A program made the position numbers. From a virus (lineage: Duplodnaviria > Heunggongvirae > Uroviricota > Caudoviricetes), in IMG/VR virus record IMGVR_UViG_2874945390_000010, positions 1 to 42,776 of that record: 42,776 nucleotides of DNA; one strand, 5' to 3'. The stretch's first letter is position 1, and the number at the start of each line of letters is the position of its first letter. Below are positions 30,601-33,600 of the stretch, piece after piece.

Positions 30601-33600
30601 ATCATTACCTGCCGGGCGTGCCCGTCGCTGGCCGTTTGAGCATATCTGCACACTGTTACGTGAGCTGGTAAAACATTCTCCCGGCGACTTTGGCTACCAG
30701 CGTTCACGCTGGAGTACAGAACTGCTGGCAATAAAAATCAATGAGATAACCGGTTGCCAGTTAAATGCCGGAACCGTTCGCCGCTGGTTGCCGTCTGCGG
30801 GGATTGTGTGGCGAAGGGCTGCGCCAACTCTGCGTATCCGTGACCCGCATAAAGATGAAAAGATGGCAGCAATCCATAAAGCACTGGACGAATGCAGCGC
30901 AGAGCATCCGGTCTTTTATGAAGATGAAGTGGATATCCATCTTCATCCCAAAATCGGTGCGGACTGGCAACTGCGCGGACAGCAAAAACGGGTGGTCACG
31001 CCGGGACAGAATGAAAAATATTATCTGGCCGGAGCGCTGCACAGCGGGACAGGTAAAGTCAGCTATGTGGGCGGCAACAGCAAAAGTTCGGCGCTGTTCA
31101 TCAGCCTGCTGAAGCGGCTTAAAGCGACATACCGTCGGGCGAAAACCATCACGCTGATCGTGGACAACTACATTATCCACAAAAGCCGGGAAACACAGAG
31201 CTGGCTGAAGGAGAACCCGAAGTTCAGGGTCATTTATCAGCCGGTTTACTCGCCATGGGTGAATCATGTTGAACGGCTATGGCAGGCACTTCACGACACA
31301 ATAACGCGTAATCATCAGTGCCGCTCAATGTGGCAACTGTTGAAAAAAGTTCGCCATTTTATGGAAACCGTCAGCCCATTCCCCGGAGGCAAACATGGAC
31401 TGGCAAAAGTGTAGCGGTATTAAGCGCAGCTATTTAGTTGCCGGATGTTGGTGGATTTTCGCGTTTTAGTTGTTCATAAAAGTGCACAGCTTTAACCAGT
31501 TCTTCTGATGTAACCAGGGCTGGTGAGGCAGTGAATAAGGCCTGAATTTGATAGTTCGGCCTGTCGTTACAATCCTCTTTTTTCGGTACATATTTCCAGT
31601 CAACAGACCACTACTTCTCCTGAAAGTCCGTAACGCCTTTTTTCACGTAGCGATATCGCCATGCCACTGGTTTTGCTTGCCCCGCCGTTTCATACCCTTC
31701 CTGATAATTAATCTCGCTCATTCATCGCCCCACTCATCACAATATGCTTCGACCGGATTTTTTCCTGCTTCATAATCATCACGCCATGCTTCAGCATCAG
31801 CAGCACTGCCACCACGTAACTCTGCATAGTCCATTAACAGTTCATGCCATTTTTCAAAACTGACGTTGTATTTAGTTGAACCAAAATCAGCCATTTTGCT
31901 CTTCCTCTTCGTCTTTTATTTCGTGATATGAGTAATTGCAGTAGTTAAAGAAAATATCTTTTGCTTCGTCATGTATTTCATCAGGCGTCGCATCAGCATC
32001 CACTTCGAATTCATCCTCGAAATCTCCACCAGCCATTCCCGTTTCAATAATTATTTTGAACTTTCGCATTTCACTACCGCCCTTTCGGGTGGCCTCCTGC
32101 TGTTCTGAGGGTGCAGAAATCCCTCCGGTTAAGGATTAAATTTTTAACAGTGCTAAACAGTTTTGGATTTTGTCACCCTGCGTATCCGCGCTTTCCCGTT
32201 ACGCTCAATCTGAATTAGCTTTTCTATATTTTTTCGCCTTTCCCGTTCCTCCTGGCGCAAGAGCCTTACATCATCTGCCAGTCTGGTTTCTCTTTTCGCC
32301 ACAGAGAGCATCCAGTCAAATGGCTCCACAACTGCACCGCAGATTTTACAGCGGACCTGACGCTCTTTTTCGTCAACCCGGACAGAAGCGTGATGGCAAT
32401 ATGGTCTTTCCGATGGCTCATAAAGAAAATTAACCTGATTACGAGGGTCATCCTCTTTTATCGGAAATAAAACGATATTGCTTAACTAATCCTCTGGTTT
32501 TATTTCCATGCTCCTCTCCTTTGATGCGAATGCCAGCGGCAATTGAAGCCTGATAGCTAATTTCACTCACAGTACCGCCTCCTGAAAATTACCCTGATAG
32601 AAAGCCAGTACACGCTGCATAGCTTCGCTCTTCCGGCACTCGCGACAGATTATATTCAGGCGCCTGTCGTAGCGGCGTATTTCTCCGTCTGGTAATGACC
32701 AGATTAGGTCCGGATCAACCGCAGATGGTTTCTTCGGCTTTGCCCTTGAGAGCTTTTTACGGGCATTTTGCCAGTCCTTACGCGCCTGTTCAGACGGGAA
32801 TAACCCGTAACCAGAGTTGTATACATCGCCACTGGCAACCAGCTCTCTGGCCAGAACGCTCATCAGATATCTTGTTGCCCCAGTTTTAGTTTCCAGTTGT
32901 CGTAACGTCTCGCGCCCACTCTGGCGTACGAGTTCAACAACCTGCCCTTTAATTTTTTCCCGCTCTTCTTGTGTAAAAACTTTTGCCACAAGCCCTCCTG
33001 AAAATTACCTCATGACCAGAAATTAACACTTACCCCCTGAAGCCCGGCGGAATTTCGTTATCCGGTTCAGAAATATGATTCACACAACGCTGGTTGTTCG
33101 TGCCGCTTACCGGGAGCAACCAGGGGTTCTCAAAATTCCGGTCCGGTCCAAAAAACGTCGTCGCTCGCTGAACAAATTCCGTTCCCGTTTTCCCGGTAGC
33201 CGCCAAGTATCTTGCGTAACGCCTCACGCCATCCAGCATGGCCTCTGGTGGCACCCCCTCGCGTAATCTGGCCTTCCAGGCACTGAAAGCGGATTTCTTC
33301 GGGTTTGCTCCGGCACGCAACGGGTACTCCCGCCAGACCTGTTCGAACACATCCGGATAATCCACTCGTCCCACAGACTGCCCGGTGTTTTCCGGGACTA
33401 CCCGATCGGCTTCCCGCTGAATGGCGGAATCGGCTTCGGGCTGCTGCAGTTGGTGTGATTGCTCCGGCCTTGCGGTCATCACCTGCTGCACAGCGCCCGA
33501 ATCGGCTTTCAGCGCATACGCTGAATCGGCTTCCGGTGTCGTGCCTGCTGGCTGACCAAGATTGACGGTCTGAACATCCCCTGCCTGGTTCGTGGCGTTT

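What the first reader, a model, noticed from the sequence alone, without database searches (positions are those of the whole stretch)
31718..32069. Pair of overlapping small acidic ORFs next to the replication module
Two short ORFs (60 and 58 aa) with overlapping stop/start (ATGGCTGA) encode highly acidic proteins. Small acidic early or late-early phage proteins are frequently DNA mimics or anti-defence factors; these are unassigned.
Basis: inference. Interest (0 to 1): 0.4.

Follow-up and report, generated by a model that had tools for sequence, protein, structure and literature searches.

The report
Two small acidic prophage accessory genes
Two real, conserved, very acidic mini-proteins of unknown function sit as a portable two-gene cassette in the early operon of an E. 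coli lambdoid prophage. They belong to already catalogued but uncharacterised families, and nothing found here shows, or rules out, that they are DNA mimics or anti-defence factors.

Summary
On the minus strand, 31887-32069 encodes a 60-aa protein (net charge -14, pI 4.06). 31718-31894 encodes a 58-aa protein (net -10, pI 4.17). Their stop and start overlap in ATGGCTGA.

Both are genuine genes: pN/pS is 0.115 and 0.091, and the pair occurs in 1750 of 5426 complete E. coli genomes. The 60-aa protein belongs to Pfam DUF7167 / PHROG 1997. It is predicted as a beta-hairpin, a helix and an acidic tail. The 58-aa protein belongs to PHROG 519, has no Pfam family, and is predicted as a three-helix bundle.

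The two families are independent. DUF7167 occurs without the partner in Klebsiella and Enterococcus phages. PHROG 519 occurs without it in Vi01-like lytic phages and in IncI2 mcr-1 conjugative plasmids. In E. coli they travel as a tight 400-bp cassette between nin-type and exo-xis-type regions.

The parts
32067..32099 (-). Leader of gene A: AGGAGG Shine-Dalgarno sequence, a 6-bp hairpin with a GAAA loop (CCACCC-GAAA-GGGCGG, with an A.C mismatch in this allele), then 7 nt and the ATG.
   Evidence: Sequence; unique in the window. The leader is conserved upstream of A in 141 locus copies, 112 with a perfect CCGCCC/GGGCGG stem and 3 with the compensated CCACCC/GGGTGG stem. It marks the 5' edge of the mosaic block.
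31887..32069 (-). Gene A: 60-aa acidic protein of family DUF7167 / PHROG 1997. Predicted as a beta-hairpin (residues 2-10 and 15-23), a helix (29-43), a possible third strand (YHEI) and a disordered acidic tail.
   Evidence: Pfam PF23768 E=4.8e-14, 52.6 bits against a cut-off of 24.4. phrog_1997 E=1.3e-29. AF2 mean pLDDT 79.3. pN/pS 0.115. RefSeq WP_001224679.1 'DUF7167 family protein' sits at the homologous position.
31887..31894 (-). Stop/start overlap ATGGCTGA, probably a translational-coupling junction.
   Evidence: Kept in 158 of 162 loci. The same overlap is used with a different upstream gene (DUF1187) in IncI2 plasmids.
31718..31894 (-). Gene B: 58-aa acidic protein of family PHROG 519, with no Pfam family. 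Predicted as a three-helix bundle (13-27, 34-42, 47-55) with conserved W16, W37, Y41 and G44 (P47 is common but not conserved in every member).
   Evidence: phrog_519 E=5.1e-22. AF2 mean pLDDT 77.9. pN/pS 0.091. 74 representative clusters at 50% identity. Family alignment. RefSeq WP_000753064.1.
31700..32099 (-). Minimal mosaic cassette (leader, A and B) shared between different genomic contexts.
   Evidence: blastn of the window against representative loci gives a 400-bp block at 96.75% identity in ArgO145-type exo-xis contexts. Other contexts break at about 32144-32154 and at about 31449-31700.
31611..31721 (-). Context, not part of the pair: a 36-codon remnant of the next gene (DUF551/phrog_660-like). 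Its ATG overlaps B's stop (ATGA). It is frameshifted and is followed by an IS insertion.
   Evidence: phrog_660 E=3.5e-07, profile positions 34-68 of 193. RefSeq marks the homologue as frameshifted with an internal stop. Frame comparison.

Best explanation
The two ORFs are genuine, independently evolving accessory genes of the early rightward operon of a Qin/Rac-type lambdoid prophage: dicC/cro-like, YdaT/cII-like, O-like initiator, DUF977, zinc-ribbon gene, A, B, then hokD, DUF968, RusA and Q.

Shown: they encode two unrelated, strongly acidic mini-proteins, DUF7167 (beta-hairpin, helix, acidic tail) and PHROG 519 (three-helix bundle). Both are under purifying selection. They are linked by a stop/start overlap and move together in E. 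coli as a 400-bp cassette between nin-type and exo-xis-type regions and P1-like phage-plasmids.

Inferred: they have no promoter or terminator of their own, so they would be made with the early genes after induction or infection. B is translated by coupling to whatever gene lies upstream.

Inferred mechanism: the proteins are too small and too acidic to be enzymes or DNA binders, and they have no metal-binding cluster. Each most likely acts alone as a stoichiometric binder that occupies a basic, possibly nucleic-acid-binding, surface on a host or defence protein. That would make them host-takeover or counter-defence factors. True DNA mimicry is only one possible form of this.
For: - Real genes: pN/pS 0.115 and 0.091 with the most variable sites at third codon positions; 1750 of 5426 complete E. 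coli genomes carry the pair; the exact proteins are seen on at least 1000 contigs each.
- Family membership.
- Folds.
- Acidity is a family trait, not a local accident. Among 51 DUF7167 members the median net charge is -12 in about 56 aa; nearly all lie between -10 and -16, and the few less acidic ones look truncated, extended or frameshifted. PHROG-519 representatives have a median of -9.
- Accessory, mobile behaviour: 9 upstream and 7 downstream flank types among 106 non-redundant loci; the minimal shared block is 31700-32099.
- DUF7167 lies in the exo-xis region of Stx2a phage ArgO145, in P22-like early-left regions beside Dam, Erf, RecT, GamL and HolE-theta, in Klebsiella Guernseyvirinae and Enterococcus Herelleviridae, and in a P1-like phage-plasmid.
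- PHROG 519 lies in about 180 Ackermannviridae records and in 561 plasmids, 516 of them conjugative and typified by IncI2 mcr-1 plasmids.
- Presence across temperate phages, lytic phages and plasmids argues against a role tied to one phage's replication or morphogenesis.
- No sigma-70-like promoter or intrinsic terminator was found on the coding strand in 31400-35100.
- There is a local GC dip to about 0.40 against 0.47-0.56 in the flanks.
Against: - There is no positive functional evidence.
- BFVD returns only uncharacterised proteins.
- The models are of moderate confidence and come from shallow alignments of 10 and 15 sequences.
- In IncI2 plasmids B sits at the head of the SPFH/NfeD/T4SS operon, far from oriT and the relaxase. 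It is therefore not in a typical leading-region anti-defence island.
- Many small acidic phage proteins have other roles.
- The promoter scan is a crude consensus match.
Confidence: 0.4

Rival explanations
1. Specific DNA mimics: one or both proteins display arrays of carboxylates that imitate the DNA backbone and block a DNA-binding enzyme such as a type I restriction enzyme, RecBCD, UDG or a nucleoid protein. Ocr, T7 Gp5.9, lambda Gam and phi29 p56 work this way (from my own knowledge of those proteins).
For: - Very high D+E content: 32% for A and 26% for B, pI about 4.1-4.2.
- Acidity is conserved across distant members.
- Several acidic positions are invariant in A between E. coli and Enterococcus phage homologues: E9, E22, E31 and D38.
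- The genes lie in early regions beside recombination and anti-RecBCD genes in several phages.
Against: - No fold or sequence resemblance to any solved DNA mimic.
- In B the conserved residues are mostly aromatic core and turn residues (W16, W37, Y41, G44), not surface carboxylates.
- The monomers of 58-60 aa are small for a DNA-like surface unless they oligomerise, which could not be tested here.
Confidence: 0.12
2. Element-intrinsic accessory factors: the acidic proteins serve the element's own DNA transactions. They might act as chaperones or regulators of basic partners such as the neighbouring zinc-ribbon protein (pI 10.9), DUF977 (pI 9.8), an exonuclease or an annealing protein, and would not target the host.
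For: - The genes lie directly downstream of replication genes and of two very basic proteins.
- The zinc-ribbon (phrog_1621) gene often accompanies the pair in other contexts.
- In Klebsiella Guernseyvirinae the DUF7167 gene overlaps the start of a 454-aa exonuclease gene.
- DUF7167 neighbours in P22-like prophages are recombination genes.
Against: - The neighbours are not constant. The pair occurs without the zinc-ribbon gene (breakpoints at about 32144-32154).
- DUF7167 occurs beside unrelated genes.
- PHROG 519 occurs after the capsid gene in Vi01-like phages and before SPFH/T4SS genes in IncI2 plasmids.
- One natural variant has lost A and kept B (L128).
Confidence: 0.25
3. An obligate two-protein system, such as a heterodimer or a toxin-antitoxin-like pair, in which A and B need each other.
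For: - Strict adjacency with an 8-nt overlap in 158 of 162 E. coli-type loci.
- The cassette moves as a unit.
Against: - Each family is widespread without the other. DUF7167 occurs alone in Klebsiella, Enterococcus, Pseudomonas and P22-like contexts.
- PHROG 519 occurs alone in about 180 Ackermannviridae genomes and about 550 plasmids.
- The overlap is encoded by B's own first codons and recurs with DUF1187 as the upstream gene.
- Both proteins are acidic, and neither has a toxin-like or DNA-binding antitoxin-like domain.
Confidence: 0.08
4. Functionless passengers: conserved only by recent spread and linkage within a decaying prophage.
For: The surrounding prophage is degraded. It carries an IS630-family insertion at 30282-31431, a nonsense codon in the upstream gene and a frameshifted downstream gene.
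Against: - pN/pS is about 0.1 in both genes, with synonymous divergence of 0.14-0.21.
- Homologues at 40-50% identity in distant phage lineages keep length, motif and charge.
- The two ORFs are intact while their neighbours have decayed.
Confidence: 0.05

Closest known systems
Pfam DUF7167 (PF23768) / PHROG 1997
   Same: Gene A is a full-length member: profile positions 1-60 of 60, 52.6 bits against a 24.4-bit cut-off. It has the family motif MRKFKV-IET...FEVEDDAT-EEI--EA-DIF-N-CNY plus an acidic tail, the typical length of 55-60 aa and a net charge near -12.
   Different: Nothing distinguishes it from other members. The family itself has no assigned function and no paper mentions it. In this lineage it is fused into a cassette with a PHROG-519 gene, which is not a general property of the family.
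PHROG 519 (uncharacterised; ML-predicted anti-CRISPR candidates in Kuttervirus phages, 10.1101/2022.06.14.493971)
   Same: Gene B matches with E=5.1e-22. All 26 diverse relatives tested fall into the same PHROG. They share the motif sFeeW...L...A...GgS-aD-daWr-DYdaG-TPeeA...dEWG.
   Different: B covers only profile positions 76-137 of 143. A 127-aa relative (P0123) looks like a frameshifted DUF1187-B read-through, and such longer entries may account for the N-terminal part of the profile; this was not checked. The anti-CRISPR label is a PaCRISPR/AcRanker prediction only and was not tested there or here.
Phage DNA-mimic / anti-restriction proteins (T7 Ocr, T7 Gp5.9, lambda Gam, phi29 p56, ArdA) - named from my own knowledge
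   Same: Small size, early expression, very low pI and a high D/E fraction.
   Different: There is no sequence, profile or fold similarity. Oligomeric state and target binding are unknown.
Small ORFs of the lambda nin region and exo-xis region (NinD/E/F/H; orf60a, orf63, orf61, orf73, Ea22) - named from my own knowledge
   Same: The same genomic niches: between the replication genes and Q, or between exo and xis, flanked by Ea22-like genes in ArgO145. They have the same character of short, mosaic, dispensable-looking early genes.
   Different: No Pfam match to any Nin family or other named family, and no match to the solved structures of such proteins.

Membership tests
Pfam DUF7167 (PF23768) | Whole-protein HMM score above the curated gathering threshold, with full-length coverage | tested here: met
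   52.6 bits against a 24.4-bit cut-off, residues 2-53 on profile positions 1-60 of 60. phrog_1997 matches at 1-57 of 57, E=1.3e-29.
Pfam DUF7167 (PF23768) | Family-typical length (about 55-60 aa), conserved IET / EV-DDAT-EEI / C44 motif, acidic C-terminal tail | tested here: met
   Alignments A4 and A6: M1, R2, I8, E9, T10, E22, V23, A27, T28, E31, I32, A36, D38, F40 and C44 are invariant across the E. coli, Klebsiella and Enterococcus phage members. Charge statistics.
PHROG 519 | Significant HMM match | tested here: met
   E=5.1e-22, residues 1-58 on profile positions 76-137 of 143. 26 of 26 diverse relatives hit the same PHROG.
DNA-mimic proteins (Ocr, Gp5.9, Gam, p56, ArdA, Ugi type) | Strongly acidic surface (low pI) | tested here: met
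   pI 4.06 and 4.17, net charge -14 and -10. The trait is conserved in both families.
DNA-mimic proteins (Ocr, Gp5.9, Gam, p56, ArdA, Ugi type) | Homology or fold similarity to a known mimic | tested here: not met
DNA-mimic proteins (Ocr, Gp5.9, Gam, p56, ArdA, Ugi type) | Carboxylate pattern that matches the phosphate spacing of B-DNA, and competitive binding to a DNA-binding protein | not testable with these tools
   This needs model coordinates of the oligomer and biochemical assays.
Known anti-defence / defence-associated families | Match to a curated family model | tested here: not met
   No hit in Pfam, NCBIfam or PADLOC-DB. No dedicated anti-defence HMM library was available.
Lambda nin-region families (NinD, NinE, NinF, NinH and others) | Pfam match to the corresponding family | tested here: not met
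   At E up to 1, Pfam lists DUF7167 above threshold and one sub-threshold chance-level hit (AnkX_ins, 17.3 bits against a 27-bit cut-off) for A, and nothing for B.
Toxin-antitoxin pair | Two co-dependent adjacent genes, one a toxin and one a neutralising and usually DNA-binding antitoxin, that co-occur across taxa | tested here: not met
   Adjacency and overlap are present. However, the two families occur independently, both proteins are acidic, and neither has a toxin or antitoxin domain.
Moron (autonomously expressed prophage cargo gene) | Own promoter and terminator flanking the gene(s), and deviant base composition | tested here: inconclusive
   GC is lower than in the flanks: 0.38 and 0.43 against 0.47-0.56. 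No promoter-like or terminator-like site was found on the coding strand, but the scan is a simple consensus match.

The most novel reading that the evidence does not exclude
DUF7167 and PHROG 519 are two new, very widespread families of counter-defence or host-takeover inhibitors. PHROG 519 in particular would be a pan-element factor shared at about 85% identity between lambdoid prophages and IncI2 mcr-1 conjugative plasmids, and at about 50% with Vi01-like lytic phages. It would neutralise a conserved enterobacterial barrier to incoming DNA. DUF7167, conserved from E. coli phages to Enterococcus phages, would target a universally conserved nucleic-acid-handling protein.
Probability: 0.3. Interest if true: 0.55.

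Novelty: already known. Interest (0 to 1): 0.25.

Why it matters
The pair is present in about a third of complete E. coli genomes, including Stx2a-converting phages. The B family is a core gene of the IncI2 plasmids that spread mcr-1. A defined function such as anti-restriction, anti-RecBCD or another host-takeover activity would therefore explain a very common piece of mobile-element cargo. It would also add to the anti-defence catalogue.

As it stands, the result is mainly a clean-up. The ORFs are real and belong to named uncharacterised families. They are not an obligate pair. There is no computational evidence for DNA mimicry beyond charge.

Tried and rejected
- **Family scans.** Pfam, NCBIfam, PADLOC and PHROGs gave only DUF7167, phrog_1997 and phrog_519, all of unknown function.
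- **PDB sequence and profile searches.** Nothing significant. The best hits were designed repeat proteins and uL23 at E of 0.01 or higher.
- **Literature.** No paper mentions DUF7167, the RefSeq or YP accessions, or PF23768. One paper gives a machine-learning anti-CRISPR prediction for phrog_519. A general search on DNA mimics and lambdoid anti-defence gave nothing relevant. The IncI2 literature reports no data on the B homologue.
- **Link between DUF7167 and exonucleases.** Rejected. The 'exonuclease' neighbour in the Enterococcus phage is an ASCH/DUF3850 protein in a related contig, and neighbours differ elsewhere.
- **Plasmid leading-region test for B.** In IncI2 it lies about 17 kb across the replication origin from MobC and the relaxase, at the head of the SPFH/T4SS operon. 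In large Klebsiella plasmids it sits in a long array of small co-oriented ORFs with no ssb, psiB or ardA markers. The test is inconclusive.
- **RNA elements and other frames.** Rfam finds only sok and DicF elsewhere in the window. The leader fold is not better than shuffled sequence overall, z = -0.5. The plus-strand ORFs across the region were not examined further; the codon-position pattern of variation fits the minus-strand frames.
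Full report
**1. Observation**

The two ORFs exist at the stated coordinates, on the minus strand. 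ORF A (31887..32069) encodes 60 aa and ORF B (31718..31894) encodes 58 aa. A's stop codon lies inside B's second and third codons, AAA-ATG-GCT-GAT, so the two overlap by 8 nt in ATGGCTGA.

A has 19 acidic and 5 basic residues (net -14, pI 4.06). B has 15 and 5 (net -10, pI 4.17). By contrast, the upstream proteins have pI values of 9.8-10.9. B's stop in turn overlaps (ATGA) the start of a 36-codon remnant ORF.

**2. Setting**

The window is a Qin/Rac-type lambdoid prophage of E. coli. Its parts are:
- Immunity genes: a DicA/cI-like repressor (34928-35347, +), a DicC/cro-like gene and a YdaT/cII-like gene.
- Replication: an O-like initiator (33030-34106, phrog_3729).
- A DUF977 / 'Ren-like' gene (32567-32989), then a zinc-ribbon gene of phrog_1621 (32153-32566), then A, B and the remnant.
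- An IS630-family insertion (30282-31431; DDE_3 transposase at 30383-31414).
- sok/hokD, DUF968, RusA and antiterminator Q, followed by lysis and structural genes.
- DicF, a RecE-like exonuclease and an integrase on the other side.

A and B therefore lie in the nin-equivalent part of the early rightward operon, about 1 kb downstream of the initiator. No promoter-like or terminator-like site is found on their strand between 31400 and 35100. The 83-nt spacer upstream of A does not fold better than shuffled sequence. The pair sits in a local GC dip of about 0.40 against 0.47-0.56 in the flanks.

**3. Are they real genes?**

Yes, for these reasons:
- The 352-bp segment is found at 80% coverage or more in 1750 of 5426 complete E. 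coli genomes. It is 100% identical in strain ATCC 43886.
- Each exact protein sequence is recorded on at least 1000 contigs.
- RefSeq annotates homologues as WP_001224679.1 (DUF7167 family protein) and WP_000753064.1 (hypothetical protein).
- Among 160 IMG/VR loci, 31 distinct alleles of A give pS 0.21, pN 0.024 and a ratio of 0.115. For B, 27 alleles give pS 0.14, pN 0.013 and a ratio of 0.091. Third codon positions carry the most variable sites.
- The ORFs are intact although the upstream gene carries a nonsense codon, the downstream gene is frameshifted, and an IS has landed 290 bp away.

**4. What they are**

*Gene A.* It is a full-length member of Pfam DUF7167 (52.6 bits against a cut-off of 24.4) and of PHROG 1997. 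AlphaFold2 (10 sequences, mean pLDDT 79) predicts a beta-hairpin (2-10, 15-23), a helix (29-43) and a low-confidence acidic tail. The conserved CNYGYHEI segment could be a third strand.

Profile searches extend the family to several lineages:
- Klebsiella, Citrobacter, Yersinia and Pseudomonas prophages.
- Klebsiella Guernseyvirinae.
- Enterococcus Herelleviridae, at 41% identity.

Fold-level matches include uncharacterised proteins of phAPEC8 and Lactococcus phage 949. Fifteen positions are invariant from the E. coli phages to the Enterococcus phage. The median net charge of 51 members is -12.

*Gene B.* It belongs to PHROG 519 and has no Pfam family, even when 26 diverse members are scanned. 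AlphaFold2 (15 sequences, pLDDT 78) predicts a three-helix bundle. An exhaustive profile search finds only 74 representative clusters at 50% identity, almost all stand-alone proteins of 50-65 aa. Conserved residues are mainly aromatic core and turn residues: W16, W37, Y41 and G44, plus a common but not universal Thr-Pro (TP) dipeptide (Asn-Pro in this allele).

**5. Are they a functional pair?**

Within E. coli-type elements they behave as one unit:
- 162 of 163 loci have both genes, and 158 keep the exact 8-nt overlap.
- The flanks fall into 9 upstream and 7 downstream types.
- The smallest block shared between contexts is window 31700-32099. It runs from 30 nt upstream of A's ATG to 18 nt past B's stop.
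- The cassette is found in nin-type positions, in the exo-xis region of Stx2a phage ArgO145 as gp15/gp14 between Ea22-like genes, and in a P1-like phage-plasmid.

Outside this lineage the two families are independent:
- DUF7167 is followed by a Cys-rich basic protein, an exonuclease, a HolE-theta homologue or other genes.
- PHROG 519 occurs without DUF7167 in about 180 Ackermannviridae genomes, downstream of the major capsid gene.
- PHROG 519 also occurs in 561 plasmid records, 516 of them conjugative.
- In IncI2 mcr-1 plasmids an 84.5%-identical B homologue follows a CaiF/GrlA-type regulator and a DUF1187 (RcbA-like) gene, and precedes SPFH, NfeD and T4SS genes.

In the IncI2 plasmids the same ATGGCTGA overlap joins B to DUF1187. 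DNA homology to the window begins exactly at B's ATG. The overlap is therefore a built-in property of B's own first codons (M-A-D). It probably serves translational coupling to whatever gene lies upstream, and it is not a sign of an A-B partnership. One natural variant (L128) has a 152-nt deletion of A and retains B.

**6.

- No family scan links either protein to a function.
- No solved structure is related by sequence or by profile.
- The literature holds no mention of DUF7167 or of the accessions.
- The only functional hint is a PaCRISPR/AcRanker prediction that PHROG-519 proteins of Kuttervirus phages might be anti-CRISPRs. That is a machine-learning call of the kind that small acidic proteins readily attract.

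The DNA-mimic and anti-defence reading is thus neither supported by any specific evidence nor excluded.

**7. Best explanation and rivals**

What is shown: two real, selected, acidic mini-proteins from independent families borne by mobile elements. They are carried in hypervariable early regions and have no detectable transcription signals of their own.

What is inferred: the proteins are too small and too acidic to be enzymes or DNA binders, and they lack any metal-binding cluster. Acidity is conserved across both families. B occurs in temperate phages, lytic phages and conjugative plasmids. The most economical mechanism is therefore that each acts alone as a stoichiometric binder of a basic, possibly nucleic-acid-binding, surface on a host or defence protein early after entry or induction (confidence about 0.4).

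The rivals are:
- Strict DNA mimicry (0.12).
- An element-intrinsic accessory or chaperone role for basic neighbours such as the zinc-ribbon protein, DUF977 or nucleases (0.25).
- An obligate A-B system (0.08).
- Functionless passengers (0.05), which the selection signal largely refutes.

**8. Novelty and score**

The sequences, the gene calls and the family assignments already exist in public resources, and only the function is unknown. A specialist would not be surprised by two small acidic hypothetical genes in a lambdoid nin or exo-xis region.

This analysis adds the following:
- The independence of the two families.
- The tight 400-bp cassette.
- The overlap that is intrinsic to B.
- The sharing of B with IncI2 plasmids.
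- The family-wide conservation of charge.

Interest is 0.25. The pair is a sensible candidate for an anti-defence screen because of its prevalence.

Noticed in passing
window 30282-31431 (transposase ORF 30383-31414, +): An IS630-family element (DDE_3 plus HTH domains) is inserted between the remnant gene downstream of B and the hokD region. Uninterrupted relatives join window 30281 directly to 31432.
   Followed up: partly
window 32067-32099 (-): The leader of gene A is AGGAGG, then a 6-bp hairpin with a GAAA loop, then 7 nt and the ATG. Folding would bring the Shine-Dalgarno sequence within normal distance of the start codon. 112 locus copies have a perfect CCGCCC/GGGCGG stem and 3 have the compensated CCACCC/GGGTGG stem. 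The window allele has an A.C mismatch. An 82-nt copy of this leader also precedes gp12 of phage ArgO145.
   Followed up: partly
L176 1296-1680 (IncI2 plasmid NZ_KU761326.1): A homologue of gene B with 84.5% identity is a core gene of mcr-1 IncI2 plasmids (561 plasmid records, 516 conjugative). It is joined to an upstream DUF1187/RcbA-like gene by the same ATGGCTGA overlap and is followed by SPFH, NfeD and T4SS genes.
   Followed up: partly
window 32153-32566 (-): The upstream zinc-ribbon gene (phrog_1621, 137 aa in phage vB_EcoS-640R1) has an in-frame stop at about codon 28 in this window. RefSeq annotates a shorter 107-aa product in close relatives.
   Followed up: partly
window 31432-31721 (-): The gene downstream of B is a frameshifted remnant of a DUF551/phrog_660-type gene, with the N-terminus MSEINYQEGYETAGQAKPVAWRYRY. 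RefSeq flags the homologue as a pseudogene.
   Followed up: partly
window 29432-29755 (-): A HokD (RelF-type) toxin ORF of 51 aa, with its sok antisense RNA (Rfam RF01794, 100.8 bits).
   Followed up: no
window 36521-36572 (+): DicF small RNA (Rfam RF00039, 76.7 bits), as in the Qin prophage immunity and division-inhibition region.
   Followed up: no
L128 2987-2989 (IMGVR_UViG_651053022_000007): A natural variant has a 152-nt deletion that removes almost all of gene A and fuses its first four codons in frame to a short linker and gene B (MRKFRKNKMADF...).
   Followed up: partly
phage record PP818812.1 (Actinobacillus phage vB_Apl-pPE4), 11344-12039: A phage assigned to Actinobacillus pleuropneumoniae carries a block 90-91% identical to this E. 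coli prophage region. This suggests an E. coli-derived prophage or a mis-assigned host.
   Followed up: no
window 38018-40456 (+): An 812-aa protein combines an exonuclease VIII (RecE) N-terminal region with a C-terminal Rv2179c-like 3'-5' exoribonuclease domain.
   Followed up: no
L181 1-22000 (Klebsiella plasmid NZ_MZ475705.1): A distant homologue of gene B (49% identity) lies within an array of more than 20 kb of about 35 co-oriented small hypothetical genes, including DUF4942, DUF6012 and DUF262, next to umuD. The array resembles a plasmid accessory or leading-region island but carries no annotated ssb, psiB or ardA.
   Followed up: no
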